NCBI GenBank assembly: GCA_037443445.1
Contig: JBBIOJ010000007.1
Location: forward strand, 5,383 to 69,382
Direction of reading: 5' to 3'
DNA: 64,000 bases
DNA from: Desulfarculaceae bacterium
GTDB lineage: Bacteria > Desulfobacterota > Desulfocorpusculales > Desulfocorpusculum
Shown here: positions 1,338 through 14,822 of the stretch, piece by piece
Layout of the letters: each line of letters opens with the position of its first letter
How positions within the stretch are numbered: position 1 is the stretch's first letter
Notes under the pieces: generated by a model
Seen by the model: the letters and a program-made list of their open reading frames with translations, nothing else
Told to the model about the DNA's origin: nothing
The model's database searches: none
Program-made: the position numbers and the translations under genes

Positions 1338-1369
1338 GGACTCAGGCCCAGAGACCTGAGTCCTTTTTT
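1338..1369. terminator. Rho-independent terminator hairpin (GGACTCAGG...CCTGAGTCC followed by TTTTTT); likely bidirectional for the tRNA cluster and the convergent oxidoreductase gene
   Basis: Perfect 9-bp stem followed by a T-run. It lies between the tRNA-Lys 3' end and the stop codon of the minus-strand gene 1368..2828. Confidence 0.6.
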
Positions 1370-2828
1370 ACTCTGAAGCTGCTTCACAGGCTCTGCCTTT
1401 CAGCTGAAACAGGAATTTGAGGCCTTTTTTCACCGTATCGGAATACAGCTTCCGGGCGAAGATGTTCCCCACGGTTCTCTTGTTTATCTCCCCCAGGGTG
1501 GGATAGGGATGAACGGCAGAGGCCACAGTGGATAGCCTTACCCCTCCGTTTATGATGGCCACCCATTCATTGAGCAACTCCCCGGCGCTTGGCCCGAGGA
1601 TCTGAATGCCGAGTGGCCTGCCTCTGGTGCCCAGGATCATTTTTATTTTCCCTATCCTCTCCCCCTCCGCGAGGCTTCTGTCATTATCTTGGAAGGCTTC
1701 TACCCATGTTGTGTAATCCAGCCCGGCCTCTTGGGCCATCTTTTCGTTCATTCCCATACCGGCTAGCTCTGGGTGTGTGAAAGTGCACCACGGCATCCAC
1801 CTGTAGTTTGCTTTTCGAGGGAGGTGCAGAACGGCATTGCTGACCACTATGCTTCCCTCATACCCGGCCACGTGGGTGAACTGATACTCCCCGGTGACAT
1901 CCCCGGCAGCATAGATGTGTCTGTGTCCTGTTCTGAGCCGATCCTCCACTTCCAAACCCTTCTTGTCAAACTTCAAGTCGATTCCCTCCAACCCCAACCC
2001 ACCCAGGTTGGCTTCCCGTCCCATGGCAACAAAGATGGTCTCTGCCCTGAGGCTTTTCAGATTCCCATCCCCGGTTCTCAAGGTTACCTCTTTCTCACTC
2101 CCAAGGTCTCTGACGCTCACCACAGAGGCATTGAGGTGGAACACGACTCCTTCCTCGGCAAGGAGGTTCATGAGAATGTCCGCCATGTCCTTGTCCTCCC
2201 TGCTCAGGATCTGGTTGCTGCGCTGGATCACAAAAACTTGAGTGCCTAGACGCTGGAACGCCTGGGCCATCTCTATGGCGATGGGTCCGGCACCGAGCAG
2301 GATCATGGATTGGGGTAAACGGTCCAGGGAGAAGATCTCCTTGTTGGTGACATAAGGAGTCTGATCCAACCCTGGTATGGCCGGAATTGCCGGGGAGGAA
2401 CCCGTGGCAATCACCCAGTTCTTGGCAGAAAAAGAAGTTCCGTTGAGCCGGATGGTATGCTCATCCGTGAATGCTGGCAGGCCAAATTCCACCTGGACTC
2501 CGAGCCTGCAGAACCGCTCTGGGGAATCGTGTTTTTGTATGGTGGCAATGACTTCCCGGATCCTTCTGACCACCTCCTTGTAGTCCACAGGCGGCAGTTC
2601 CACCGATGGAAGCCCGAATTTACCTGCGTTTTTCATCAGATGGCGTACATGGGCCGTCTTGATGAGAGTCTTGCTGGGAACACAACCAAAGTGGAGGCAA
2701 TCCCCTCCCAGTTCATTCTCCTTCTCAACCAGGAGAGTCTTGGCTCCCAGCTGGGCTGCACCCGCCGCCACAGTCAGGCCCGCGGCTCCACCCCCGAGAA
2801 TGCCGATATCGAAATCATGATTCGCCAT
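1368..2828 (-). CDS. Class I pyridine nucleotide-disulfide oxidoreductase (dihydrolipoamide dehydrogenase / mercuric reductase-like core)
   Basis: N-terminal FAD-binding GxGxxG motif (GILGGGAAG). Redox-active disulfide motif GGDCLHFGCVPSK. A dimerisation domain is present. There is no C-terminal vicinal Cys-Cys pair and no NmerA domain, so it is not a MerA. Confidence 0.8.
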   Translation of the reverse strand: MANHDFDIGILGGGAAGLTVAAGAAQLGAKTLLVEKENELGGDCLHFGCVPSKTLIKTAHVRHLMKNAGKFGLPSVELPPVDYKEVVRRIREVIATIQKHDSPERFCRLGVQVEFGLPAFTDEHTIRLNGTSFSAKNWVIATGSSPAIPAIPGLDQTPYVTNKEIFSLDRLPQSMILLGAGPIAIEMAQAFQRLGTQVFVIQRSNQILSREDKDMADILMNLLAEEGVVFHLNASVVSVRDLGSEKEVTLRTGDGNLKSLRAETIFVAMGREANLGGLGLEGIDLKFDKKGLEVEDRLRTGHRHIYAAGDVTGEYQFTHVAGYEGSIVVSNAVLHLPRKANYRWMPWCTFTHPELAGMGMNEKMAQEAGLDYTTWVEAFQDNDRSLAEGERIGKIKMILGTRGRPLGIQILGPSAGELLNEWVAIINGGVRLSTVASAVHPYPTLGEINKRTVGNIFARKLYSDTVKKGLKFLFQLKGRACEAASE

Positions 2829-2851
2829 AACGTCCTCCTAGTCATAAATAT

Positions 2852-3583
2852 TCACACCTTTGAAATTTCAGATGCCTTCCTTATTCTCACCTTGTACAGG
2901 GTCATCAGCTTCTTCACCAGGAGGGGAAACAGGCCCAAGATAGCGAAGGAGACGATAAGGCTAGGGGAAAGGATCCCGGAGAGGGAATCTATCTTGGCGA
3001 GCTCTTTCCCCGCGTTGACATAAATGGCTGTCCCCGGCAGCATTCCCACCTGGGAGACCCAGTAGAAAGTGAGCAATGGAACCTTGGTAAGCCCCATTAC
3101 CAGATTTATCATCCAGAACGGGAACAGAGGGATGAGGCGCAGGGTGAAGAGGTAGAAGGGGCCTTCCCTGGCGATTCCCTCGTTGATGGTGGTGAGGCGG
3201 TCGCCGAATTTGCCCTGAACCCAGTCCCTCAGCAAGAACCTGGAGACGAAGCAAGCCAGGGTCGCCCCTATGGTGCTTGCGAAAGAGACCACCAGAACGC
3301 CTACCCAAAAACCGAAAAGGGCCCCCCCGGCCAGGGTGAGGATGGTCGCCCCTGGCAGGGAGAGGGAAGTGGAGAGGATATAGATCACCATGTAAACGGC
3401 GATCACAAGGAGGCGATTCTCCGCGTAGAGGCTTGCGAACTTGGCCTCTGAGGCCTTGAGGTAGGAGAGGGATAAATACTGTTCCAGATCAAAGATATTG
3501 AAAGCTGCGATTAAGCCCAGGACCGCCCCGAGAATCAGGATCTTGTGGATAACCCTCTTGCTCTTGTGCTTTTCATTTTTCAT
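2852..3583 (-). CDS. DedA/TVP38 (SNARE-associated) family membrane protein
   Basis: Multi-TM protein of 243 aa with the DedA-like core (LPGATILTLAGGALFG). It sits immediately downstream of the oxidoreductase, a recurrent pairing. Confidence 0.7.
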   Translation of the reverse strand: MKNEKHKSKRVIHKILILGAVLGLIAAFNIFDLEQYLSLSYLKASEAKFASLYAENRLLVIAVYMVIYILSTSLSLPGATILTLAGGALFGFWVGVLVVSFASTIGATLACFVSRFLLRDWVQGKFGDRLTTINEGIAREGPFYLFTLRLIPLFPFWMINLVMGLTKVPLLTFYWVSQVGMLPGTAIYVNAGKELAKIDSLSGILSPSLIVSFAILGLFPLLVKKLMTLYKVRIRKASEISKV

Positions 3584-4436
3584 GGGAAGCCTCGTTCAGT
3601 TTCCAGTCGTAGTGATACTCGATCCTGCCTTTGTACCCGCTCAACTTCCCGGCCAGCGGATCCGCCGCATACCTAAGCAAATGTTGGATGACCCCGGCCT
3701 GGGTTCCTCCGAAATCCGCCTGGTACCAGTCATAGATGGACGAAAGGATCAGCCCCCTTCCTTCGAATCTGGCCCCCCGGGGATGATTCACGTATTGTCG
3801 TGCCCCTTTCTCCAGGAGCCCATCAGTGTTCTCCTGTGTGAATGCCTCTGGTTGAAGGTTGGGGCAACTCATGCTGGCGCAGTTGACAGCATAGTGAACT
3901 CGGTTGTCCTTCCAAATGGGCCGGAGGATGCGATGCTCGATGTCGTTGAGCGAGGCCTCCTCGCCCTCGATTCTAAGGAGTTTGGCTCCCCAGGGTCCCT
4001 TGCTGAACAATCCCGGGGAAATGTTGATGTCCAGGATGCTCTGGACCGGATAATGATCCAGGATCACCTTCACCGTGAGGGCGTTGTAAAGGTTTATCCA
4101 ATAAGCTTTTTGTTCAAGCCGGCTGAGCCCGGAGACTCGGACAGCCTGGAGCGCGCTTAGGTATTCTTCCAGTGACTTCCTGTCAGCTTCCGTGACCGCT
4201 CCATACCTGATTTTGTTGACCCCGGAGGGATCATCGGTCACCAGGTAGTTCTTCAGGAACCGATCCCACAGGCTGTGGTCCACTCGAATGGTGCTCAGTG
4301 GGTCGTTGGCCTCCCACCTGGGCCAAAGCTCTGCTTTGGGGGCCGCTCCGGTCTCCTTTACCCCAGCCCAGAGCGCCACAAGGACCGCCCCGGAAATGAA
4401 AAAACGCTTGAAAAACATTCTGTGACTCCTTTCCAC
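3573..4436 (-). CDS. DUF547 domain protein, secreted (paralog 1)
   Basis: Has a signal peptide and the DUF547 hallmark stretch (KAYWINLYNALTV ... HYAVNCASMSCP). Confidence 0.6.
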   Translation of the reverse strand: MERSHRMFFKRFFISGAVLVALWAGVKETGAAPKAELWPRWEANDPLSTIRVDHSLWDRFLKNYLVTDDPSGVNKIRYGAVTEADRKSLEEYLSALQAVRVSGLSRLEQKAYWINLYNALTVKVILDHYPVQSILDINISPGLFSKGPWGAKLLRIEGEEASLNDIEHRILRPIWKDNRVHYAVNCASMSCPNLQPEAFTQENTDGLLEKGARQYVNHPRGARFEGRGLILSSIYDWYQADFGGTQAGVIQHLLRYAADPLAGKLSGYKGRIEYHYDWKLNEASHEK

Positions 4437-4755
4437 CGGTTCATTCCTTTCACCGGCTCTTGATCCTGAGTCGTTCCGGGAAATGAATTGTTACAGCTTA
4501 CCTCAAGAAACACCGATGTCGGGGCAAAAGGCAATGCCCGGTGTAAAGTGGCAGGACCGGACTATGAATCCCTTCTCATGCCAGATGCCCTTGGGGTCCG
4601 GGCGCTCCCGGCAGCATGGAGGGGACGGCCTGTGCGCCCAACTTGACAAAATCAAATGAGATCGCAACAATGGCCTCGTCTTGGCGCCTGGTTTTCTTGG
4701 CGGTGCCTCCTTGCGGCTGTTGCAGGTCAAGTGTGGTTCAGTCTGAAGCAAGCCC

Positions 4756-5325
4756 ATGTCCCCGGATCCGGAAAAATGGCTTGATGAGCACGGGGACTAT
4801 CTTTTTGGCTATGCCTTTGCTCGTCTTCAGGACCGGGGCGTTGCCGAGGACATGGTGCAGGAGACCCTTTTGGCAGCCCTCGAGGCCAAGGACAGGTTTG
4901 AAGGCAGATCCTCTGAGAGGACCTGGCTGGTGGGGATTCTCAAGCACAAGATTTTGGACCATCTTCGCTCTCACAGCCGGGAAATCCCCGTGACCGAGCC
5001 GCTTGAACCCGACGGGGAGATGGAGGCTCTGTTCGATGAACGGGGAAAGTGGAAGGAGGGTTCGGCGCCCTGGAGGGATGATCCGCAATCCTTTCTGCAT
5101 CACAAGGAGTTCTGGAACACTTTGGTGCAATGTCTGGAGGAGCTGCCGGGGCGTTTGGGTCAGGTGTTTGCCTTGAGGGAGTTAGAGGGGCTCGGGACGA
5201 ACGAAATCAGTAATCTATTTGGGGTCACATCGACTAACCTTGGGGTTCTTCTTTACCGAGCCCGTATGCGCCTCAGGCGTTGCCTGGAGATCAACTGGCT
5301 CGGGGAGAAGCCGAGGAGCAAATGA
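4756..5325 (+). CDS. ECF (extracytoplasmic function) RNA polymerase sigma-70 factor
   Basis: Sigma-70 region 2 (YLFGYAFARLQDRGVAEDMVQETLL) and region 4 (LPGRLGQVFALRELEGLGTNEIS). Size is 189 aa. Confidence 0.8.
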   Translation: MSPDPEKWLDEHGDYLFGYAFARLQDRGVAEDMVQETLLAALEAKDRFEGRSSERTWLVGILKHKILDHLRSHSREIPVTEPLEPDGEMEALFDERGKWKEGSAPWRDDPQSFLHHKEFWNTLVQCLEELPGRLGQVFALRELEGLGTNEISNLFGVTSTNLGVLLYRARMRLRRCLEINWLGEKPRSK

Positions 5326-5328
5326 ATC

Positions 5329-5595
5329 ATGCTATCCTGTAAAGAGATCACCGCCCTGGTCTCCGAGTCGATGGACAGGAGACTTCCCTTTGGCCAACGC
5401 CTGGCGGTCAGGCTCCATCTGATGATATGCAGGTTCTGCTCGCGCTACAGAAGGCAGCTGTTGGCGGTGCGCGCTTCTGTGGGGCGGTATGTGGAGGAGA
5501 TGGAATCCTCCAATGGCCTAAACCCATTTTCACTTTCTGAGGAAGCCCGCTCCAGGATCAGGCAAGCCTTGGCCGGGCAGTCGGGCTCGCAATAA
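5329..5595 (+). CDS. Anti-sigma factor, zinc-finger (ZAS-type) small protein
   Basis: Its ATG lies 3 nt after the sigma stop codon (IMLSCKE). Carries the H-x3-C-x2-C motif (HLMICRFC). No transmembrane segment. Classic sigma/anti-sigma coupling. Confidence 0.6.
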   Translation: MLSCKEITALVSESMDRRLPFGQRLAVRLHLMICRFCSRYRRQLLAVRASVGRYVEEMESSNGLNPFSLSEEARSRIRQALAGQSGSQ

Positions 5596-5627: not shown

Positions 5628-7703
5628 CTATACCTTGCAGAGCCCATGGATAGACTCGCACGTGTTCGAGTAAAGCTTCTCGATCCAGTCGCCCCTTTGA
5701 ATATAAGGCATGGAGGGAGATCCGCATTCAGGGCAGATCCGGCTTCTGGCCATGCGACGCAGAAAACGGTGGGTTGTGGCGATGAATGCCGCATGGCTCC
5801 AGGCAAGAGGAGACACTGAGAGGGGCTCACCCGTCAATGGGTGGAGCTGTTCGGCCAGCACCCCGGAGGGGAGTGCGTGGGAGGCCACCCACCGAAGGAT
5901 TTCGTGCGCTTGGGTGACCTCCTCGTTGCTCTCACCCCGCTCCAGCAAGTAATCCGCCAGCCAAAGTGTACAGATGATCCAAGGGTTGCCGGGAACGTTG
6001 CTGCTTTGCCGGTGATAGGGATCGTTCTCATAGCGGGCCATTCCTCCGACACTCTGCACCCATAGCCTCTCCCGAAGGGTGGACATGCTGGACACTATGC
6101 GGGGGTCATCGGCGGAGTACATGCCAAAGGCAAACAATCCCCAAAGGCTTGAGTCACAGGTGGCATCGGTCTGCAGCTTGCCTTCTGGATTGGGATAAAG
6201 CATTCGGCAAAACCGATTCATGTCTTCCATCCAGAGGTGGGATGAAGCGGCATCCCGAACCTCTGCTGCCACGACTCGATACCGGTCCGCTTCCTCTTCC
6301 TCCCCAAAGACCTTGCAGAAGAGGGAGGCAGCCGTAAGCCCACCGAAAACCGCCCCCACCGTGAAAGCGGAGATACCGTAGCGTTCCTCCCACAGGTCGT
6401 AGGACGGGGCCGGAAGGCCGGTTCGTGGGTCCCTGAAGCGGCACATGAACTCCGCGGCCTTCTTGACCAGGTGGGCATACAAAGGCTTGACGAATTCGAT
6501 ATCCCGAAACATAACGAAATGGTGCCAAAGGGCCCATATGACGAGAGCCGTGGAGTCCTCCTGTATGGGCAACCGGGGCCGGCCCTCGTAAGACCAGGGG
6601 TGCCAGGAGGAGGCCAGCGTCCCGTCGGGGTTGTACTTGTGCAAGAGGTAACCCTCCGGCTCCAATCGATCAGCTATGAACTGAAAGAAGTTCCTGGACA
6701 GGCCGGGATAACCAGCCAGGTCCAGGGAATAGGCTGCCAACGCCCCGTCCCGGGGCCAGATATAGGAATAGGTGTCCCTGTTGAACTGAATCACATCCGA
6801 GTCATTGCCGGCCAGGATGCCCCCCTGCCAGTCGATCTGGATCCTCAGGACGAGCAAGCTGCGTTTGTACAGCCCGGCAACCTCCTCTGAGAGCTCAGAG
6901 AGCGGCGGCGACTCCTTTTTTACCCACAGCCCCCAGTAATCGGCCGTCCGCTGGGTCAACTTCCTGGGGTGCCTGTGTTTGACCAACGCATCCAGCCTTC
7001 GGACCTGTTCCCAGCTTTCTCCTGCTGTGATCCAGAAGTAGCATTTTTCCTCGGCCCCGGCCTGCAGGTTCATCCGCAGGGCAATGACCGAATCCACCGA
7101 TCCCTGGGCAATGGGGTTGCCTGAGAGCCGTCCGTCTTCCGCATCTTTGAAGGTCCCCATCCTGCCGCCTGTTGCGGTCTGCCCCGTAGCGAATTGATCC
7201 AAGCCTTCTCCGCCCTCCACCCAGCCGTTGGCCAAGAAATACCTGGCCCCCTTGTAATGGACAACGCCGCCGCTGGTGGGGTCAAAGGCCGCAGTGTCCC
7301 CCACTCTATTGCCGGATATTCCGAGATCCAGATGGAAAAACAGACGAATCTCCCGCGACCTGTCACTGAGATTCTCCACCGAGATCTCCCTGACATAGAT
7401 GTCTTCGTGGAAATCCACTGCATCGCTGCAGCTGAGGCGAAGCATCAGATCGGGCGAGAACAGTGTCACCTCCGTGATCAGGGTGTCGGCTGCATAGCGA
7501 AGCTCTGGATGCCATCCAGGGCCTACCCAGGAAAATCTGCCCTCCACCCACACCCCGAGCCTGGAGACATTGCCTCCTCCATGGTTCTCCTGCCCCACGT
7601 GCGGGTAATAGATGTCCCGGATGCAATAGTCCTTGTCGAAACAGATCAGGAGTTTTCCATTGCCCACAGGGATATCTCTCGGCATGGCCGTCACCTCCAT
7701 CAT
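5628..7703 (-). CDS. Glycoside hydrolase family 15 (glucoamylase / glucodextranase / trehalase-like)
   Basis: 691 aa with an (alpha/alpha)6 barrel and the GH15 signatures (IWPRDGA, LWEERYG). Has a C-terminal Cys cluster. Confidence 0.75.
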   Translation of the reverse strand: MMEVTAMPRDIPVGNGKLLICFDKDYCIRDIYYPHVGQENHGGGNVSRLGVWVEGRFSWVGPGWHPELRYAADTLITEVTLFSPDLMLRLSCSDAVDFHEDIYVREISVENLSDRSREIRLFFHLDLGISGNRVGDTAAFDPTSGGVVHYKGARYFLANGWVEGGEGLDQFATGQTATGGRMGTFKDAEDGRLSGNPIAQGSVDSVIALRMNLQAGAEEKCYFWITAGESWEQVRRLDALVKHRHPRKLTQRTADYWGLWVKKESPPLSELSEEVAGLYKRSLLVLRIQIDWQGGILAGNDSDVIQFNRDTYSYIWPRDGALAAYSLDLAGYPGLSRNFFQFIADRLEPEGYLLHKYNPDGTLASSWHPWSYEGRPRLPIQEDSTALVIWALWHHFVMFRDIEFVKPLYAHLVKKAAEFMCRFRDPRTGLPAPSYDLWEERYGISAFTVGAVFGGLTAASLFCKVFGEEEEADRYRVVAAEVRDAASSHLWMEDMNRFCRMLYPNPEGKLQTDATCDSSLWGLFAFGMYSADDPRIVSSMSTLRERLWVQSVGGMARYENDPYHRQSSNVPGNPWIICTLWLADYLLERGESNEEVTQAHEILRWVASHALPSGVLAEQLHPLTGEPLSVSPLAWSHAAFIATTHRFLRRMARSRICPECGSPSMPYIQRGDWIEKLYSNTCESIHGLCKV

Positions 7704-8063: not shown

Positions 8064-8882
8064 TCAGGCGTTGAGGTTCCAGTCGTACGGTCGGTATCTC
8101 AATTTGAATTCGTCTCTGTGATCCGCGAGGACATCCTTCTTTTCACCCTCGTCCAGGAATCGCAGGAGTGTCTCCAGCACGCTCGTGTCCGTGCCGCCGA
8201 AGTCGGAACGGTACCAGCGAAATATCTTCGATAGGAGAACGACCCTATCTTCTGGGATGATCTCAACCTCAGGCCCGTTGATGAAGCTCGCAGCTGCAAG
8301 GTCAAGCTGGGAATCCACCCTGTCTGCCTCATAGAACCCCACGGGAGGGCACGAGCGTGCCCCACACACCAGGGCGAAATGGATCCTTGGGTCCAAGGGT
8401 GAAACCACAAACCGCCTCCTGGGATCCCTCCCGCGAAAGGGTTTCAGGAGCCCATACGGGGCTCTGCGATTGCTACGGAGAATCCCGTGTTCCATATCTT
8501 GCAAGGAAAATCGGTGTCCTCCTATCTCATAGGCCGCGCGGCAGAAGAAAAACGGGATCTCCCGTACAGACCGGCGCACCCCGAGCCTAACAACGCCGTG
8601 GATGACGGCCGCGTTGTATATGTTGATCCAGAAGGCCAGTCGCTGGCCTGGCTCGGAGAGGGAATCCAGATGGAAGGAACGAAGGCCATTGGCAAGGGCT
8701 TCGTATTTTCGAAACGTCTCCGAACGCAGCATCTCATGGTATTGGATCCTGCCGCTTTCAGGATCCAGGAATTCCGCCTTCAGATCAGCCAGGGTCAAAC
8801 TCAGAACCGTATCCACGGCCTGGCCTTCCGGCGGAGCCCCAGGCTCCCCGCGGTTGATCACTATTTTGGAACACGGGAACAC
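8064..8882 (-). CDS. DUF547 domain protein (paralog 2)
   Basis: Motifs LAFWINIYNAAVIHG and HFALVCGARSCPP. Second copy of the family in this 5-kb region. Confidence 0.6.
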   Translation of the reverse strand: MFPCSKIVINRGEPGAPPEGQAVDTVLSLTLADLKAEFLDPESGRIQYHEMLRSETFRKYEALANGLRSFHLDSLSEPGQRLAFWINIYNAAVIHGVVRLGVRRSVREIPFFFCRAAYEIGGHRFSLQDMEHGILRSNRRAPYGLLKPFRGRDPRRRFVVSPLDPRIHFALVCGARSCPPVGFYEADRVDSQLDLAAASFINGPEVEIIPEDRVVLLSKIFRWYRSDFGGTDTSVLETLLRFLDEGEKKDVLADHRDEFKLRYRPYDWNLNA

Positions 8883-8939
8883 TTTTTAACCCCCCTTCTT
8901 GCTCGGGGCAAAGGGTCACTGCCTGCTTCTCAATTGGCT

Positions 8940-9308
8940 CTAACTCGGCTCATTCTGCCCCGCAGCCTCCTCCATTCCACAGAGCCTCGGAAGAACACGG
9001 CTGCGGATAGCCGCTTCCTTCTCTGAGCTCCCCTCCCTCCCCAGGGCATCCAGGCTTCTCCACAACCTGATCTTTGCCTCGGTCCAGTTAATCTCAGGGG
9101 CCACTTGATGCAGATAATGCTCGATCTCGGCCTCTGTGGCCCTTCGATGTTTGCTCGAATGGAGAACATCACCGATGTTCCACTCGCCCTCTGGTCAGGC
9201 GGGGAAGAACACAAGGTTCCCGCCCTCCAAGAGAAGAATACTGTACTGCTCATCGTATCTCACGACCTTGAGAAAAGTCTCCGGCAGCTCAAAATCCTTT
9301 GCAGACAT
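8940..9308 (-). CDS. Candidate small selenoprotein or readthrough ORF: a 37-aa ORF with a strong RBS, an in-frame TGA at about 9195-9197, then 84 further in-frame codons with no internal start (about 122 aa in total); function unknown
   Basis: AGGAGGAGGTG sits 7 nt upstream of the ATG. The in-frame TGA is followed 14 nt later by the hairpin GAACAUC-GGU-GAUGUUC. The downstream in-frame segment (PEGEWNIGDVLHSSKHRRATEAEIEHYLHQVAPEINWTEAKIRLW...) has protein-like composition but no start codon of its own. Coordinates are +/-2. Confidence 0.25.
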
Positions 9309-9459
9309 CCCAACACCTCCTCCTATTTTGAGGCCTTCGGGCCTCACGCCAGGCGTTCTCGGCTAATGATTCCGAATCGGGCCATTCGATGTCATCCTCA
9401 ATAAATTAGTCAGCAAAGGCCAGCCCAGATTACAATCCAACTTTTTTCCCCTTTGCCTC

Positions 9460-9525: not shown

Positions 9526-9966
9526 TTGACCAGCCGGGGAAGGGGGTTGATACCCATGAAGAACCACCTTGGTAAGATAGGTCTGGCAGGGGCGATTTTT
9601 GCCGCGCTGTGCTGTATCGGAACCCCGGCGCTGCTCACGATCCTAACATCCATCGGGGCAGGATTCCTGATCAACGATTCGGTCTTGCTGCCTTTGCTGG
9701 TGTTTTTCCTGACGCTCAACATCATTGGATTGCGCCTAACTTATAGAATCCATAGAAACCTCTGGCCCATGATACTTGGGGGACTGGCCTCGGCTGCCAT
9801 TGTGGTATTCATTTACGGCTGGTTCTTCAGGCCCGGCCTTTACCTGGGCCTGGGGGCCCTGGTAGCCAATTCGGTTTGGAACGCGGTTATGAAGAAGGGC
9901 TGCGAAACCAAGAGACCGCATCAAGTCCCGGGGCTTTTCCAGAGTTGTGAACGGGGGTCGCGATGA
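9526..9966 (+). CDS. merT: MerT-like mercuric/heavy-metal ion transport membrane protein
   Basis: Vicinal Cys pair in TM1 (AALCCIGTPALL), matching the MerT CC motif. A second TM segment follows, then a cytoplasmic Cys pair (GCETKRP...SC). The track start is TTG at 9526; an internal ATG at 9556 (MKNHLGKIGL) is more likely the real start. Confidence 0.55.
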   Translation: MTSRGRGLIPMKNHLGKIGLAGAIFAALCCIGTPALLTILTSIGAGFLINDSVLLPLLVFFLTLNIIGLRLTYRIHRNLWPMILGGLASAAIVVFIYGWFFRPGLYLGLGALVANSVWNAVMKKGCETKRPHQVPGLFQSCERGSR

Positions 9967-10154
9967 AGGAAACCATCACCGTGGAAGGCAATAGGCATTA
10001 TGAATGTGGCGTGTGTGGCTTCGCGTACGAGGAGAAGGAGTGGGCCGAGAAATGCGAGGCGTGGTGCTCGGCTCACGGAAGCTGCAACATGGACATTACT
10101 GAGCATGCAGTGCAGAGGAAGGTTCAGCATTCCCCACAGGAGGAACGATCCTGA
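9963..10154 (+). CDS. Small cysteine-rich protein (5 Cys in 63 aa; CGVCG ... C-x3-C-x5-C), candidate metal-binding protein
   Basis: Its start overlaps the merT-like stop (ATGA), indicating translational coupling within the mer-like operon. No recognisable family. Confidence 0.4.
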   Translation: MKETITVEGNRHYECGVCGFAYEEKEWAEKCEAWCSAHGSCNMDITEHAVQRKVQHSPQEERS

Positions 10155-10300
10155 CCAAAGGAAAATCCTCGGGCCAAAGCCTCGGTCGGTGCGCTTCACC
10201 GTGTGGGTGAACCGGGTGGTGAGCCGTCCCAAAGGAAGCTGAAAGGAGGGCTTGACTCTGCACTGTGCTCCAGGGTTTAAACTGCAAACAGAGGTGAGAC

Positions 10301-10714
10301 ATGGAGGGTCTGAGCATAGGCCAGCTGGCCAGGAAGTCCGGGGTGAATGTGGAGACCATACGCTACTACGAGAGACGGGGACTACTTCCGGCGCCGCCCC
10401 GTGGACGCTCCGGTTACCGGCATTACTCTCCGAGAGACATCCAAAGGGTACGGTTCATCAAGCGGGCTCAGAGGCTCGGATTCACACTGAAGGAGGTATC
10501 AGAGCTCTTGCAGCTGAAGGTGGATCCCCAGACCACTTGTGCTGATGTCAGAAGACGGGCTGAGATCAAGATGGCGGAAATAGACCAAAGGATTCTGGAG
10601 CTTCACGCAATGAGGCAAGCCCTTTCGAAGCTGGCAACCTCATGCCCAGGATCCGGTCCGAGTGCCGAGTGCCCGATACTGGATGTCTTGGACTCAAACG
10701 AGGAAAGGAGGTGA
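10301..10714 (+). CDS. merR: MerR-family Hg(II)-responsive transcriptional regulator
   Basis: N-terminal MerR HTH (IGQLARKSGVNVETIRYYERRGLL). Cysteines at positions 80, 115 and 124 are spaced exactly as the Hg-binding Cys82/Cys117/Cys126 of Tn501 MerR. Confidence 0.8.
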   Translation: MEGLSIGQLARKSGVNVETIRYYERRGLLPAPPRGRSGYRHYSPRDIQRVRFIKRAQRLGFTLKEVSELLQLKVDPQTTCADVRRRAEIKMAEIDQRILELHAMRQALSKLATSCPGSGPSAECPILDVLDSNEERR

Positions 10715-10719
10715 GAAAG

Positions 10720-10998
10720 ATGAATGCCAAGAGGAGGATAGAGATCTTCAGTGCAGGATGCCCCGTATGCAAGGAGGCGGTCGAGATGGTCAATGGAGCC
10801 GCCTGTCCTTCCTGCGAGGTGAGCGTGCTGGATATGCACGACTCCCAGGTCGCCAAGCGCGCGAAGGATTTGGGCATCTGTTCCGTTCCCGCGGTCCTGG
10901 TTGACGGGAAGCTAGCCGAGTGCTGCGCGGGACGCGGCCCTGATGAAGGGGCCCTCAGGGCAGCCGGGTTGGGAAGACCGATCCAGGAACACTTTTAG
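10720..10998 (+). CDS. Thioredoxin/glutaredoxin-like small redox protein with CPVC and a vicinal CC pair
   Basis: ATG at 10720 preceded by GGAGGTG. The 92-aa product carries CPVCKEA, CPSCEV and ECCAG. The track ORF 10642..10998 is the same frame with a spurious N-terminal extension. Confidence 0.5.
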   Translation: MNAKRRIEIFSAGCPVCKEAVEMVNGAACPSCEVSVLDMHDSQVAKRAKDLGICSVPAVLVDGKLAECCAGRGPDEGALRAAGLGRPIQEHF

Positions 10999-11168: not shown

Positions 11169-11666
11169 TCAGCCCTTCTTCCTGCTCTTGTAGAACTTGA
11201 CCAGGCCCAGCACGTCGCGAGCCACCAGACGACCCACGGGCCCCGTGCTGTAACAGGCCACCTCCACCGTGCCCTCAGGTCGAATGAGAAAGCCGGTGGC
11301 ATGAATGATCTTGCGCTCCCTGTCATAGTAGGCCCCTGTGACCCTGGAGACCTCCTCAGCATCCATACCGTATGCCACGGGAAAGGTAATGCCCAGCCTC
11401 TCGACGGTCTGCTTGGCCTTCTCCAAAGGATCCACCGATGCGGCCACAATAGAGATCTGCTCAGCCTCGAGCTCCCCACCGAGGGCTTGGAAGTCAGCCA
11501 ACTGCTGACTGCAGAAAGGTCACCAGTGACCGCGGTAAAGGAGCACTACACCGTAGCCCGGCCCCAAATCTCGGGGCAGGACAAGCTCTGCACCCTCGAC
11601 AGTGCGCAGGCGAAGTTCGGGGAACCGGTCGTTTGCATCAAGAATTGTCTTGTTCATCCTGGCCAT
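11169..11666 (-). CDS. Peroxiredoxin-like redoxin (AhpC/TSA / PRX-like1 type) selenoprotein: in-frame TGA (11520-11522) at the peroxidatic Cys position, giving the motif W-U-P-F-C
   Basis: Track ORFs 11520..11771 and 11169..11501 share one frame and are separated only by TGA. Joined they read LLYRGHW-U-PFCSQQL, a canonical FYRGxWCPxC redoxin motif with U in place of C. The hairpin AGUCAGC-AGUUG-GCUGACU begins 9 nt after the UGA. Start is MARMNKTIL, preceded by GGGAGG. Confidence 0.6.
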
Positions 11667-11767
11667 CTCGACCTCCCAATGATATCCCATGAATCTTGTG
11701 GGTAGAACCCTTTTCCGAAGAGCTCCTTGGGCACGCCTGGGAAGGCTTCGAGGTGAGCCCAAGGTCC

Positions 11768-12448
11768 TCAAACCTGGATCCGGTACATCTGGTGATTCAG
11801 GCAGAACTCCCTTTGACCTTTGCGGTAATCCTCGAAGGCGGCCCTTACAATGGAAAACGCCTCAGAGCAGTCCTTGGCCAGGAATATCAGCTTCACATCT
11901 TCCTCATCCAGCAACCCGTCTCGAATGGGCCGATTCCTGATCCAGTCTACCAACTCTGCCCACATCTCTCCCAATAGGATCAACGGAATATGACACACAT
12001 GCCTTACCTGCATCAACTGCCAAGTGTAAAAGAACTCCAGAAGGGTTCCAATACCACCTGGAGCGATGACCGCCGCGTTGCTCAGCACCATGAAGTGATC
12101 AAGCCTTTCTGAGAAACGGGAGAAGTCTTTTTTCAAGTCCAGATGAAAGGCGTCCTTCTGTTCCTTAGGAAGACGGATGTTCAACCCAATGGAGTGAAGA
12201 GGCGCAGGGCCCCTTCCCGCGTGGTGTCCTTTGCTGGCCGCGTCCATCAGGCCGGGGCCCCCACCCGTCACAATGTCCATCCCCTCCGCGGCCAGAAGTC
12301 GCGAGAGGTTGTACACCATCCGGTATACCGGGTCACCCTCTTTGAGGCGCGCGGATCCAAAAATGGCGACTCTGAAGTGAGACCGTGCAATTTCATTTTC
12401 GATCTCCGCGGATACACCGGGTGCCCCTTTTTGATCTTGCCCGCTCAT
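11768..12448 (-). CDS. LOG family protein (cytokinin riboside 5'-monophosphate phosphoribohydrolase-like; TIGR00730)
   Basis: Motifs GGGPGLMDA and PGGIGTLLE. The ATG at 12446-12448 is preceded by AAGGAGGG. The track start at 12487 is an upstream TTG in the same frame. Confidence 0.7.
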   Translation of the reverse strand: MSGQDQKGAPGVSAEIENEIARSHFRVAIFGSARLKEGDPVYRMVYNLSRLLAAEGMDIVTGGGPGLMDAASKGHHAGRGPAPLHSIGLNIRLPKEQKDAFHLDLKKDFSRFSERLDHFMVLSNAAVIAPGGIGTLLEFFYTWQLMQVRHVCHIPLILLGEMWAELVDWIRNRPIRDGLLDEEDVKLIFLAKDCSEAFSIVRAAFEDYRKGQREFCLNHQMYRIQV

Positions 12449-12490: not shown

Positions 12491-13399
12491 TCATGGAGCT
12501 GTGAAGACCTCAGTGTCCGGGTGAAATGCCTGCCACGCAAACCAGTAGCTGTAGATGACCGGAATCTCCCCGCCACGATCATCGAAGATCCTTAGGAGCT
12601 CTCCCCCAGGGGAGATCTCGATCTGCACCTCCACTCCCCCGACTTCATCACGAAGCACTCCCGCCTTCTTTCTCAGGAGGGAGATCGGATAGGCCCTGGT
12701 GTGACCTTGGATCTCCAGGCCCAGGACCATCTCCTTGGGAGAAAGGTCGGTCCTCACGTCCCCGACGAGAAACCAGATCCCAAGACCCCTGTAATAGCCC
12801 TCGTAAGGGTCCACGGAGTAATCCCTTCGGTGGCCCGTATCCGTGGAGAGCACGAGCGTCTGGGGCTTCTTTTTCAGCCACGTCCTCCAGGTCGTTCTGA
12901 GCGAGGGAATCCTCCGCAAGGACTTGCCGGCGAGGGGGCCGGCAATGGCCTTCTCCATCATCTGGGACCAGAGGCTTTCGTTCTGGTGGTCGTAAAGAAG
13001 CACGTTGCTCTTGTAAAGCAATCCTGACACCCCGAATGTATGTGTCACGCCCTCCAAAGCCCGGGAGTAGACCACCCCCGATTGTGTGAGCGGTCAGAAG
13101 GTCACGACCACCGGAGCGCCGCCCACGGTGTCGTTGACGACCTCGTGCCAGTTGAGGATCTTGATGGGGTAAGCCTTTGCTTCCTCTCCCACCGCTACCC
13201 CTATGACCGTATCGTCGGGCTTGAGAAATAGTGCTTCCTGTGGACTTACGAACTTGGGTTCCAGAATCGCCGGGATCCCGTCCTTGGGAGGTCCTCCAGA
13301 GAGAATCTCCCCCTTCGGAACGATGGCGTTATCCAGCCGGAAGCCCGTGACCGCAACCCACAACCCAAAAGCGGTCAGGAATTGACCGATTCTCTTCAT
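12491..13399 (-). CDS. DUF3179 family secreted protein with an in-frame TGA at 13094-13096 (candidate selenoprotein; alternatively a nonsense pseudogene)
   Basis: Track ORFs 13094..13399 (signal peptide plus N-terminal half ...GGAPVVVTF) and 12491..13075 (C-terminal half, ...YWFAWQAFHP) are in the same frame and separated by a single TGA. The junction reads VVVTF-U-PLTQSG. The hairpin CGGGGGU-GGUCU-ACUCCCG begins 13 nt after the TGA. Confidence 0.45.
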
Positions 13400-13604: not shown

Positions 13605-14822
13605 ATGGCCCTACTGGAGACGTTTCCCGAGCCCATGCGCTCGCACCTTGCCAAGCTGCCATGTCCCTCTTTCGAGACACATCCCTGGGTCCAGGGGCCG
13701 GCTCTTTCCAAGCGCCGTGTGGCCCTGATTTCCACAGCCGGCCTCCACAGGCGCAAGAACCGGCCCTTCGAGGGGATGACCGGAGAGTATCGTGTGATAC
13801 CGAAAGAGTGCGAAGCCAACGACCTGATCATGACGCATGTATCAACCAACTTCGACAGGACAGGGTTTCAACAGGACTGGAACGTGGTGTTTCCTCTGGA
13901 CCGACTCAGGGAACTGGCCGAGGAAGGTATCATCGGGAGCGTGGCCGATTATCATTACTCCTTCATGGGAGCTGCGGATCCTTGGGAAATGGAGCCGTGG
14001 GCCCGAAACCTGGCTGGAGTGCTCAAGGGTGGCCGGGTGGATGCTGCTCTGCTTGTCCCGGTCTGACCCTTCTGCACGCGCGCCGTGGGCGCGCTGGCCC
14101 ATTACCTTGAGGCAGAAGGGATTCCCACCACACAGATCAGCCTCATCAGAGAGCACACAGAGATCATCCGCCCTCCCAGGGCTCTCTGGGTTCCCTTCGA
14201 GTTGGGACGGCCTCTGGGCATTCCAGGCGACGCTGCTTTCCAAGGGCGGGTGCTGCGGGCGGCGCTTGAACTTCTGGAGTCGCAGGAAGGGCCCGTGCTG
14301 GAGGACTTCCCAGAAGATGCTCCCCAAGGGAAAGCCGGCCTTGAGGAAACCGCCCAGGCATGGGCGTGTCCGGTCAGTTTCTCAGCCGCGCCCGAAAAAG
14401 CAGGGGATGAAGGGGAACTCCTGCCCGCACTGCGGCGAGAGATCATGGAGCTGCGGCCCTGGTACGATCTCAGCCTGGAGCGCAGGAAGCGCACCTCGGT
14501 GGCATATTTCCCTCCCGAGGCTGCTTCCCAGTTCTTCGGTTCCGTCTTGCTGGGGGAAGCTCATCATATCCCTGAGAACTTGGCATCACCCGCAGTGGCC
14601 CTCAGGCTCGCAGCCCAGGATCTGAAGGCATTCTATTTCGAGTCCGTGACCGCTCGGCCGGGCTTCGCCACCCCGGGAGCCTCGGAGTTCAACAGGTGGT
14701 TCTGGCAGCAGACTGCTGCAGGCCGCCTCCTGAAGTCGGTGAGGAGGATCTGCGCAGACTCCCAGGATCAGGAGATGAGAGACGCCGCAGTGCGGTTCTT
14801 GATCCCGCTGGACCAGGCTTAG
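13605..14822 (+). CDS. Glycine/sarcosine/betaine/D-proline reductase component B family (GrdB/PrdB-like, PF07355) selenoprotein, with in-frame TGA at 14064-14066 (motif VPV-U-PFC)
   Basis: Track ORFs 13605..14066 and 14085..14822 are in one frame, separated by TGA. The sequence across the junction is continuous and family-like (LLVPV-U-PFCTRAVGALAHYLEAEGIPT). A 7-bp GC hairpin (GCGCGCC-GUG-GGCGCGC) begins exactly 11 nt after the UGA. RBS GGGGGAGG precedes the ATG. Assignment to PF07355 is from recalled motifs, not a search. Confidence 0.5.

What the first reader, a model, noticed from the sequence alone, without database searches (positions are those of the whole stretch)
8940..9308. Small ORF with strong RBS, in-frame TGA and downstream hairpin; 84 further in-frame codons with no start
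AGGAGGAGGTG-N7-ATG drives a 37-codon ORF ending in TGA. The same frame stays open for another 84 codons of protein-like sequence (EAEIEHYLHQVAPEINWTEAKIRLWRSLDALG...) that lacks any start or RBS. A 7-bp hairpin (GAACAUC-GGU-GAUGUUC) begins 14 nt after the TGA. This could be a small novel selenoprotein, a programmed readthrough, or a gene killed by a nonsense mutation. No Cys flanks the putative Sec, which is atypical and lowers confidence.
Basis: seen in the sequence. Interest (0 to 1): 0.55.

Follow-up and report, generated by a model that had tools for sequence, protein, structure and literature searches.

The report
Uncatalogued small bacterial selenoprotein gene
The in-frame TGA is very probably a selenocysteine codon in a roughly 106-122 residue protein family, found in at least four bacterial phyla, that gene callers split in two and that matches no selenoprotein family in the catalogues I could check.

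Summary
An SD and ATG open a 37-codon stretch, followed by TGA (9197..9195), 84 more codons and TAG. A 7-bp hairpin starts 14 nt after the TGA.

This is neither a pseudogene nor a 37-aa peptide. I recovered about 60 homologous loci from Desulfobacterota, Methylomirabilota, Acidobacteriota and Bacillus. Of 42 distinct full-length DNA copies, 41 carry TGA at codon 38. Both halves are under purifying selection (dN/dS 0.16 and 0.11).

The hairpin GAACAUC-GGN-GAUGUUC fits the bacterial SECIS model. Its stem codons show no synonymous variation in 40-42 sequences, whereas the loop codon varies freely. One lineage has a compensatory A-U to C-G change. The only Cys form has lost the hairpin.

The window holds three other selenoprotein genes (Prx-like, DUF3179, PrdB/GrdB-like), so the host very probably decodes Sec.

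The family matches no Pfam or NCBIfam model and no family in a 2026 list of 119. The AlphaFold model (pLDDT 86) is not a thioredoxin fold and has no PDB match. There is no CxxU/UxxC motif and almost no Cys homologues, which probably explains why Sec/Cys-pair methods missed it.

The biochemical function is unknown; I infer a selenol redox or chalcogen-handling role.

The parts
8937..9308 (-). Whole gene: 122 codons including Sec at codon 38, plus the TAG stop
   Evidence: Translation. Homologues are collinear over residues 1-106.
9316..9324 (-). Shine-Dalgarno sequence AGGAGGAGG, 7 nt upstream of the ATG
   Evidence: Read directly from the sequence. A GGAGG-like motif sits at the same place in many homologous loci.
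9198..9308 (-). N-terminal coding part, codons 1-37 (MSAKDFELPETFLKVVRYDEQYSILLLEGGNLVFFPA). In the model of a homologue this region forms beta strands 1-3.
   Evidence: dN/dS is 0.16. Public gene calls list it as a separate 37-aa protein, P0062.
9195..9197 (-). TGA, the inferred selenocysteine codon (codon 38), always followed by a CCN Pro codon
   Evidence: TGA in 41 of 42 distinct copies. Also TGA in the Bacillus and Firmicutes-type members.
9181..9194 (-). 14-nt spacer between the TGA and the hairpin (codons P39-E42 and part of W43). It may form a small helix with the codons just upstream of the TGA.
   Evidence: the lower helix is inconclusive.
9164..9180 (-). SECIS-like hairpin GAACAUC-GGU-GAUGUUC: 7-bp stem and GGN loop, 21 nt from the UGA to the loop. 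It also encodes W-N-I-G-D-V (beta strand 4).
   Evidence: Stem invariant in 29-30 of 30 sequences. No synonymous variation in the stem codons while the loop codon is free. One compensatory A-U to C-G change in L062. Hairpin energy -7.1 to -7.3 kcal/mol, z about -3.5 to -3.8.
8940..9194 (-). C-terminal coding part, codons 39-122: strand 4, a basic loop (LHSSKHRRAT), three helices and a 16-residue tail specific to this window
   Evidence: dN/dS is 0.11.
8937..8939 (-). True stop codon, TAG
   Evidence: In homologues the terminal stop is variously TAA, TAG or TGA.
9366..9395 (-). Weak sigma-70-like promoter match (ATGACA-18-AATCAT), about 58 nt upstream of the ATG
   Evidence: Consensus scan only. 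Not evidence of function.

Best explanation
Window 8937..9308 (minus strand) is one intact gene for a small cytoplasmic selenoprotein.

How the recoding works (inferred). The ribosome starts at the SD and ATG. At codon 38 the UGA is read as selenocysteine rather than stop. The 17-nt hairpin that starts 14 nt downstream acts as a bacterial SECIS element. It recruits SelB carrying GTP and Sec-tRNA(Sec) to the ribosome while the UGA is in the A site. The invariant C after the UGA, from the Pro codon, probably gives a weak termination context. When selenium or SelB is limiting, the likely by-product is the 37-residue N-terminal peptide.

The product. It is about 106 residues in most species and 122 here. 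The model has a four-stranded beta unit followed by three helices, with Sec in the tight turn PA-U-P-x-G between strands 3 and 4. The SECIS stem also encodes strand 4 (W-N-I-G-D-V), so those nucleotides are constrained both as RNA and as protein.

What is shown here:
- conservation of the TGA;
- purifying selection on both sides of it;
- RNA-level constraint on the hairpin;
- loss of the hairpin where the TGA has become Cys (TGC) or Ser (TCA);
- other selenoprotein genes in the same window;
- no match to any known family model.

What is inferred: actual Sec insertion, and the protein's chemistry.

My best guess for function (about 0.3). The lone selenol is a redox or chalcogen-handling nucleophile, working next to the conserved basic loop (HHSxRHRRAT, or TRRR in the Bacillus type). 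It would act within thiol or oxidative stress and S/Se/As redox gene neighbourhoods.
For: 1. All 11 genome loci and 42 of 43 metagenome loci have TGA at codon 38. Counted as distinct full-length DNA copies, that is 41 of 42. Residues are conserved on both sides: FFPA-U-P-x-GEWNIGDVHHS.
2. Divergent Bacillus/Firmicutes-type members, about 35-38% identical, have the same TGA and the same hairpin.
3. dN/dS is 0.16 for the N-terminal part and 0.11 for the C-terminal part. Synonymous sites are near saturation elsewhere (pS 0.77-0.80) but pS is 0.216 in the hairpin codons.
4. Stem codons are fixed: AAC 42/42, ATC 42/42, GAT 40/40, GTT 42/42. The loop codon GGN has entropy 1.83 of a possible 2 bits. 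Other conserved codons average 0.80 normalised entropy.
5. L062 carries a compensatory change (ATC to CTC with GAT to GAG, making A-U into C-G). In L046/L048 the loss of the top pair is accompanied by a new bottom G-C pair.
6. The Cys form (L058, TGC) and the Ser/frameshift form (L056, TCA) have lost the hairpin.
7. The published bSECIS model requires a 3-9 nt loop, a 4-16 bp stem, a G in the first two loop positions and 16-37 nt from the UGA to the loop (PMC13188914). This hairpin has a GGN loop (or C-GGN-G), a 7-bp stem and 21 nt spacing.
8. TGA is the true terminator of the same gene in at least 10 loci, so the genetic code is standard.
9. The window contains three further genes with in-frame TGA at known Sec positions and a hairpin downstream: Prx-like RGHW-U-PFC, DUF3179 VTF-U-PLT, and PrdB/GrdB-like VPV-U-PFC.
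10. Public protein sets hold only halves (37-aa N-terminal and 46-54-aa C-terminal fragments) or full-length calls with W at position 38. The one W call I checked does not translate under table 11.
Against: - There is no experimental evidence of selenium incorporation.
- selA, selB, selC and selD could not be examined in any host. ARAGORN found no tRNA-Sec in the window or the loci.
- The hairpin alone folds at -7.1 to -7.3 kcal/mol, just short of the model's -7.5 threshold. Its 3-nt loop is at the lower limit.
- Folding 71 nt of this window alone gives a different minimum-energy structure.
- The stem is nearly invariant, so covariation support rests on one lineage.
- Only one Cys-containing lineage exists.
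- Two Arg variants (CGG and CGA) keep the hairpin, which a pure SECIS role does not predict unless the loss is recent.
- Gene neighbourhoods are variable. The commonest neighbour appears in 9 of 36 loci, so the functional inference is weak.
Confidence: 0.85

Rival explanations
1. SECIS-independent programmed readthrough. The leaky UGA-C context, helped by the downstream hairpin, is read by a near-cognate tRNA (Trp, Cys or Arg), so the full-length protein carries an ordinary residue at position 38.
For: UGA followed by C is a weak terminator (my own knowledge of tetranucleotide stop signals in E. coli). Variants with Arg, Ser or Cys codons exist at this position, and two Arg variants keep the hairpin. 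No Sec machinery was seen directly.
Against: If an ordinary residue sufficed, a one-step change to TGG, TGY or CGA would remove the cost of termination and should be common. Instead TGA is kept in 41 of 42 copies across four phyla. The hairpin matches the bSECIS geometry and the G-G loop rule. The host has three other standard selenoprotein genes nearby. The hairpin is lost in the Cys form.
Confidence: 0.07
2. Two products: a genuine 37-residue peptide that ends at the TGA, and a separately translated downstream protein made by reinitiation or coupling.
For: Gene callers and NCBI annotation list exactly such halves (P0062 at 37 aa; 46-54-aa C-terminal fragments).
Against: No start codon follows the TGA for 30 codons in this window (the first is GTG at 9104). 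The most conserved residues, P-x-GEWNIGDVHHSxRHRRAT, lie in that start-less stretch. The frame is continuous in every homologue. AlphaFold places residues 32-47 in one beta hairpin spanning the TGA, with pLDDT 86 overall.
Confidence: 0.03
3. A pseudogene inactivated by a nonsense mutation.
For: It has an in-frame stop, and this genome's annotation carries only the 37-aa half.
Against: The same TGA is present in about 60 loci from four phyla. dN/dS downstream of it is 0.11. The true stops vary.
Confidence: 0.01
4. UGA is reassigned to Trp or Gly (code 4 or 25) in these organisms.
For: Several database proteins show W at position 38.
Against: The one W-call checked, P0043, does not translate under table 11; by inference the other W-calls are likewise alternative-code gene predictions on short contigs. 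TGA terminates the same gene in at least 10 loci. The lineages involved (Desulfobacterota, Methylomirabilota, Acidobacteriota, Bacillus) use the standard code (my own knowledge).
Confidence: 0.01

Closest known systems
Canonical bacterial Sec recoding: UGA followed immediately by a SECIS hairpin bound by SelB, as in E. coli fdhF
   Same: An in-frame UGA inside the coding region. A stem-loop starts 14 nt downstream, with G-G in a small apical loop 21 nt from the UGA. The hairpin itself is translated.
   Different: The hairpin is short (7 bp, about -7 kcal/mol) and has no bulge. It is essentially identical in sequence from Bacillus to Desulfobacterota. By contrast, bSECIS elements are described as usually bearing no resemblance to one another (PMC13188914).
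Computationally predicted 'hypothetical' selenoprotein families (deep-Sep DG/DW/DF; GOS_B/GOS_C; OS_HP3-5)
   Same: Small proteins of unknown function, recognised only through a conserved TGA, a bSECIS and TGA-containing homologues (PMC12013277; PMC13188914).
   Different: This protein matches none of their NCBIfam or Pfam models. [quoted passage not shown] This one has a single Cys lineage among 56 database hits.
Glycine reductase selenoprotein A (GrdA)
   Same: A small selenoprotein family that, to my recollection of the literature (not checked here), essentially lacks Cys-containing homologues. In that sense it is also Sec-obligate.
   Different: GrdA has a CxxU motif and a defined role in the glycine reductase complex. 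There is no sequence or domain similarity here, and no grd genes are consistently adjacent.
Thioredoxin-fold redox selenoproteins (Prx-like, Trx, Grx, SelW-like, DsbA-like), which make up most of the known prokaryotic selenoproteome
   Same: They occur in the same genomic islands; a Prx-like UxxC selenoprotein gene lies 2 kb away. The role is presumably redox.
   Different: There is no CxxU or UxxC motif and no partner Cys. The predicted fold is a four-stranded beta unit plus three helices, and PDB hits are at most weakly SH3-like (best E = 1.6).

Membership tests
Bacterial selenoprotein gene (UGA-Sec with bSECIS) | The in-frame UGA is conserved at the same position in orthologues | tested here: met
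   TGA at codon 38 in 41 of 42 distinct copies, plus the Bacillus/Firmicutes-type members.
Bacterial selenoprotein gene (UGA-Sec with bSECIS) | Protein-coding conservation continues in frame on both sides of the UGA | tested here: met
   dN/dS is 0.16 upstream and 0.11 downstream. Residues flanking the UGA are invariant.
Bacterial selenoprotein gene (UGA-Sec with bSECIS) | bSECIS geometry: 4-16 bp upper stem, 3-9 nt loop, G in the first two loop positions, 16-37 nt from the UGA to the loop (PMC13188914) | tested here: met
   7-bp stem, GGN loop (or C-GGN-G), 21 nt spacing.
Bacterial selenoprotein gene (UGA-Sec with bSECIS) | bSECIS minimum free energy of -7.5 kcal/mol or lower | tested here: inconclusive
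   -7.1 to -7.3 kcal/mol for the 19-nt hairpin and -8.5 for the 39 nt from the UGA. The result depends on the stretch folded.
Bacterial selenoprotein gene (UGA-Sec with bSECIS) | The RNA structure is itself under selection | tested here: met
   No synonymous variation in the four stem codons while the loop codon is free. One compensatory pair and one stem shift. The hairpin is lost in the Cys and Ser forms.
Bacterial selenoprotein gene (UGA-Sec with bSECIS) | Cys-containing homologues align Cys with the UGA | tested here: met
   Met by one lineage only: P0010/L058 has TGC at the aligned position, FNA-C-PNVEWNIGDA. Such homologues are otherwise absent.
Bacterial selenoprotein gene (UGA-Sec with bSECIS) | The host encodes selA, selB, selC (tRNA-Sec) and selD | not testable with these tools
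Indirect support: three other selenoprotein genes in the window.
Bacterial selenoprotein gene (UGA-Sec with bSECIS) | Selenium incorporation demonstrated (75Se labelling or mass spectrometry) | not testable with these tools
   This needs an experiment.
Any of the 119 catalogued prokaryotic selenoprotein families (PMC13188914, Table 1) | Match to the family's Pfam, NCBIfam or TIGRFAM model, or to its Sec motif | tested here: not met
   No Pfam hit and no NCBIfam (release 20) hit at E up to 10 beyond noise. The motif PA-U-P-x-G is not in the table. 'WNIGDV' occurs in no paper searched. PGAP annotates only a 48-aa fragment in Bacillus sp. AK128.
Thioredoxin-fold redox selenoproteins | A CxxU or UxxC (or TxxU) motif on a thioredoxin fold | tested here: not met
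   No Cys near the Sec. The model is four beta strands plus three helices, with no PDB match.
Nonsense-mutation pseudogene | The stop is not shared by orthologues, and selection downstream is relaxed | tested here: not met
   The stop is shared by about 60 loci, and downstream dN/dS is 0.11.
UGA sense-codon reassignment (codes 4 and 25) | UGA is never used as a terminator in the organism | tested here: not met
   TGA terminates this same gene in at least 10 loci.

The most novel reading that the evidence does not exclude
The family is a Sec-obligate sensor or gate tied to the ECF sigma / zinc-finger anti-sigma pair that flanks it in a quarter of loci, sometimes only 13-51 nt away in the same orientation. 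Two versions are possible. In one, the lone selenol senses oxidants or chalcogen oxyanions and signals to the anti-sigma factor. In the other, the efficiency of UGA decoding, which depends on selenium supply, gates translation of the downstream sigma gene. Either would be a selenium-dependent regulatory device rather than an enzyme.
Probability: 0.08. Interest if true: 0.85.

Novelty: new member of a known kind. Interest (0 to 1): 0.62.

Why it matters
It adds a family to the prokaryotic selenoproteome that the catalogues I checked do not contain. The family is unusual in four ways. It does not have a thioredoxin fold. It has no CxxU/UxxC motif. It has almost no Cys-containing relatives, although nearly all selenoenzymes have abundant ones (PMC13188914). 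Its SECIS is frozen at the nucleotide level across four phyla.

Sec/Cys-pair pipelines and deep-Sep, by their authors' own account, may miss families without Cys homologues (PMC12013277). The family is therefore a concrete example of a blind spot in those methods. It is also a natural case for asking when Sec cannot be replaced by Cys.

Members occur in cultured Bacillus isolates (AK128, ISL-47), so the prediction can be tested directly. Practically, many genomes carry two spurious small ORFs where one selenoprotein gene should be annotated.

Tried and rejected
- **First protein search.** A word-indexed search with the 122-aa translation (U replaced by C) found nothing. Homologues are split by gene callers, so DNA-level searches were needed.
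- I used the 84-aa C-terminal part for the search, and a full-length database homologue for the model.
- **Rfam.** No relevant family at either threshold.
- **tRNA-Sec.** No tRNA-Sec in the window or in 32 loci.
- **ECF promoter.** A search for a shared ECF-type promoter (GGAAC-N15-18-CGT) upstream of the gene across 39 loci found nothing consistent.
- **Possible eukaryotic subgroup.** I suspected that P0003/P0005/P0010 were eukaryotic. They come from bacterial contigs and are Cys or Ser/frameshift derivatives.
- **Literature.** The Haft and Tolstoy 2025 paper on selenoprotein neighbourhoods is not held. Its families are covered only indirectly, through the NCBIfam scan.
- **Antisense ORF.** I rejected the antisense ORF 9105..9404(+) as a gene. 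Synonymous-site patterns fit the minus-strand frame.

Full report
**1. The observation**

The feature lies on the minus strand.
- AGGAGGAGG (9324..9316) sits 7 nt upstream of ATG 9308.
- 37 sense codons follow, then TGA at 9197..9195.
- The same frame stays open for 84 more codons, to TAG at 8939..8937.
- The first in-frame start codon after the TGA is GTG at 9104, which is codon 69.
- The hairpin GAACATC-GGT-GATGTTC occupies 9180..9164 and begins 14 nt after the TGA.

GC content by codon position is gene-like in both halves and matches neighbouring genes.

**2. Is the TGA conserved?**

A word-indexed protein search with the joined translation found nothing. Searching DNA worked.
- Eleven loci in representative genomes match residues 1-106 at 51-64% identity. 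They come from Desulfobacterota including Desulfomonile and Desulfobacteraceae MAGs, from Methylomirabilota, and from a Vicinamibacterales MAG.
- Forty-three metagenome loci do the same.
- Every genome locus has TGA at codon 38. The true terminators vary between TAA, TAG and TGA.
- Among 42 distinct full-length DNA copies, 41 have TGA. One (L029) has CGG.
- The residues around the TGA are the most conserved in the protein: FFPA-U-P-x-G-E-W-N-I-G-D-V-H-H-S-x-R-H-R-R-A-T.

HMMER searches of 1.84 and 5.8 billion proteins found three kinds of entry:
- halves, namely 37-aa N-terminal and 46-54-aa C-terminal fragments;
- full-length calls with W at position 38 (the one checked, P0043, does not translate under table 11);
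- rare variants.

The searches also revealed a divergent Firmicutes-type subgroup. One member lies in the complete genome of Bacillus sp. AK128. NCBI annotates only the last 48 residues there. The DNA reads MKIIKENREYGIYLLDDGVSIIHPA-TGA-PTSLWNIGDV..., with the identical hairpin. L060 shows the same arrangement.

**3. Is it coding on both sides?**

Nei-Gojobori estimates over all pairs give a median dN/dS of 0.16 for codons 2-37 and 0.11 for codons 39-106. This excludes both a decayed pseudogene and an unrelated downstream sequence. TGA also serves as the real terminator of this gene in at least 10 loci, so the code is standard.

**4. The hairpin**

RNAalifold on 27 distinct sequences returns the 7-bp hairpin as the consensus structure. 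It is invariant in 29-30 of 30 sequences, so classical covariation is scarce. Synonymous sites provide the evidence instead.
- Asn44 is AAC in 42 of 42 copies, Ile45 is ATC in 42 of 42, Asp47 is GAT in 40 of 40, and Val48 is GTT in 42 of 42.
- The loop codon Gly46 uses all four GGN codons (entropy 1.83 of 2 bits).
- Thirty-nine other conserved degenerate codons average 0.80 normalised entropy.
- Synonymous divergence is 0.216 in the hairpin codons, all of it from the loop codon, against 0.77-0.80 elsewhere.

The searches used peptide patterns and protein profiles, so this is not an artefact of how the loci were found.

Three natural variants agree with a structural role.
- L062 has ATC to CTC together with GAT to GAG. 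This turns an A-U pair into C-G and changes both amino acids.
- L046 and L048 lose the top C-G pair (GAT to TAT) and gain a G-C pair at the bottom (CAT to CCT). The result is a 7-bp stem with a CGGGU loop.
- The Cys form (L058, TGC) and the Ser/frameshift form (L056, TCA) have stem-breaking substitutions and no longer fold.

Measured against the published bSECIS model, the element fits on loop size, stem length, G-G in the loop and spacing (21 nt). The free-energy criterion is marginal: -7.1 to -7.3 kcal/mol for the hairpin alone and -8.5 for 39 nt.

A possible second small helix enclosing the UGA shows some covariation between the third positions of the Pro36 and Gly41 codons. It is absent from the Bacillus type, and I leave it open.

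**5. Does the host decode Sec?**

No Sec machinery lies in the window. However, three other genes within 5 kb have an in-frame TGA at the known Sec position of established selenoprotein families, each followed by a strong hairpin:
- a Prx-like thiol:disulfide oxidoreductase (RGHW-U-PFC, TGA at 11522);
- a DUF3179 protein (VTF-U-PLT, TGA at 13096);
- a PrdB/GrdB-like protein (VPV-U-PFC, TGA at 14064).

All four Sec codons in the window are followed by a Pro codon.

**6. What is the protein?**

No Pfam or NCBIfam model matches. An AlphaFold2 model of a full-length homologue, built with a 41-sequence alignment, is confident (pLDDT 86, pTM 0.80).
- Strands lie at 15-19, 24-27, 32-37 and 42-47.
- Helices lie at 59-69, 75-81 and 95-106.
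- Sec38 sits in the turn between strands 3 and 4.

Foldseek against the PDB gives nothing better than E = 1.6, with weak SH3-like hits. A profile search of PDB sequences is empty. The protein is therefore not a thioredoxin fold. There is no signal peptide or membrane segment visible in the sequence, by my reading.

Features conserved in both subfamilies are PA-U-P, WNIGDV, an Arg cluster, and the helical LWRS...G..G(S/T).EKE..I...IL.

**7. Variants at the Sec codon**

Four different one-step replacements occur, each rare.
- CGA (L062) and CGG (L029) encode Arg.
- TGC encodes Cys (L058).
- TCA encodes Ser and comes with a 1-nt frameshift (L056 group).

No replacement has spread. I read this as a sign that Sec is hard to replace in this protein. 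The two Arg forms still carry the hairpin, which I cannot fully explain; recent loss is the simplest account.

**8. Genomic context**

The loci collapse to 39 groups at 93% amino-acid identity, and 36 of these have at least 1.5 kb of flanking sequence. Within 4 kb of the gene, those groups contain:
- an ECF sigma factor of the TIGR02943 type in 9, with a short zf-HC2 anti-sigma factor in 4;
- an ArsS-type radical SAM (seleno)protein in 6;
- a DUF3179 selenoprotein in 5;
- a VTT/DedA protein in 5;
- an ExtM-like multihaem cytochrome in 5;
- a CrtC-lipocalin in 4;
- MerR-TPR in 3;
- a GrdB-like protein in 3.

In some loci the spacing is operon-like. DUF3179 ends 18 nt upstream of the gene, and the sigma gene starts 13 nt downstream of it. 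In this window the gene sits 55 nt upstream of a DUF547 gene. It is also divergent from a MerC-like / MerR / thioredoxin-like operon. The sigma/anti-sigma pair lies 3.6 kb away.

No neighbour is universal. The context suggests thiol or oxidative stress and S/Se/As redox chemistry, but it does not assign a function.

**9. Comparison with what is known**

A 2026 review lists 119 prokaryotic selenoprotein families with their models and motifs (PMC13188914). None corresponds to this one. The NCBIfam release of June 2026 carries the recent Haft and deep-Sep families, and it does not match either. BSepDB covers 111 known families found by homology.

The deep-Sep authors state that their method may not identify selenoproteins lacking Cys homologues (PMC12013277). 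Nearly all known selenoenzymes have abundant Cys homologues. That probably explains why this family escaped.

I could not read Haft and Tolstoy 2025 or the groundwater MAG survey cited in the review. An unpublished or very recent description therefore cannot be excluded.

**10. Verdict**

This is a real, intact gene. It is very probably a selenoprotein gene that uses the ordinary bacterial UGA/SECIS/SelB mechanism (confidence about 0.85). It represents a family that is absent from current catalogues and annotation.

The mechanism is known, while the family, its fold, its near-total dependence on Sec and its frozen SECIS are new. I rate it a new member of a known kind, with interest 0.62.

Noticed in passing
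window 11169..11771 (-), TGA at 11522..11520: A Prx-like / ResA-like thiol:disulfide oxidoreductase gene with an in-frame TGA in the classic RGHW-U-PFC motif and a strong hairpin downstream. ORF lists split it into two ORFs.
   Followed up: partly
window 12491..13399 (-), TGA at 13096..13094: A DUF3179 selenoprotein gene (VTF-U-PLT; Pfam E = 8e-87 with U replaced by C). The same gene lies 18 nt upstream of the family member in seven loci (L004, L012, L013, L015, L032; 54 nt in L023; further away in L003).
   Followed up: partly
window 13605..14822 (+), TGA at 14064..14066: A PrdB/GrdB-like selenoprotein gene (VPV-U-PFC) with the hairpin GCGCGCC-GTG-GGCGCGC just after the TGA. All four Sec codons in the window are followed by a Pro codon.
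   Followed up: partly
window 4756..5595 (+): An ECF sigma factor (TIGR02943 family, above its cutoff) and an 88-aa zf-HC2 anti-sigma factor. The same pair flanks the family member in 9 of 36 non-redundant loci, sometimes 13-51 nt away.
   Followed up: partly
window 9556..10998 (+): An operon divergent from the finding: a MerC-like membrane protein, a 63-aa Cys-rich ORF with no Pfam or NCBIfam match (9963..10154), a MerR-family regulator and a Thioredoxin_3 protein.
   Followed up: partly
window 1368..4436 (-) and 8064..8882 (-): A pyridine nucleotide-disulfide oxidoreductase, a VTT/DedA protein and a DUF547 protein in a row. A second DUF547 gene starts 55 nt downstream of the finding.
   Followed up: partly
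window 9345..9330 (-): A GC-rich hairpin, GAGGCC-CGAA-GGCCTC, in the 5' leader, ending 5 nt before the SD. No T-run follows on either strand, so it is not a typical terminator. I did not check whether it is conserved.
   Followed up: no
L001 (MGQQ01000096.1) 4460..4804 and a second copy on the same contig: Two paralogous copies of the family, both with TGA and the hairpin, on one 9-kb contig.
   Followed up: no
L062 2099..2101 and L029 (Sec position): Two independent Sec-to-Arg variants (CGA and CGG) that keep the hairpin. L062 carries the only compensatory stem change seen (A-U to C-G).
   Followed up: partly
L056/L057 about 6100..6160; L058 5001..5357: A subgroup from contigs that carry Ser/Thr kinase and FGE-sulfatase genes. 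It has a different C-terminus (..NAFLYQF..FDLDKF.KKIL). Position 38 is Cys (TGC) in L058, and Ser (TCA) with a 1-nt frameshift in L056. The frameshift form is represented by eight near-identical gene calls (one cluster at 90% identity) from several contigs and assemblies.
   Followed up: partly
L018 613..2952 and relatives (L001, L024, L026, L047): A 779-aa multihaem cytochrome ends 29 nt upstream of the family member. It resembles ExtM of the 'selenite/tellurite reduction operon' (NCBIfam NF040943, 258 bits, below the 800-bit cutoff).
   Followed up: partly
alignment A5, columns 2-7 with 15-19 (window about 9203..9181, minus strand): A possible small helix enclosing the UGA. The third positions of the Pro36 and Gly41 codons covary (6 pair types, 20 of 30 paired; score above 500 of 500 shuffles). 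It is not formed in the Bacillus-type members.
   Followed up: partly
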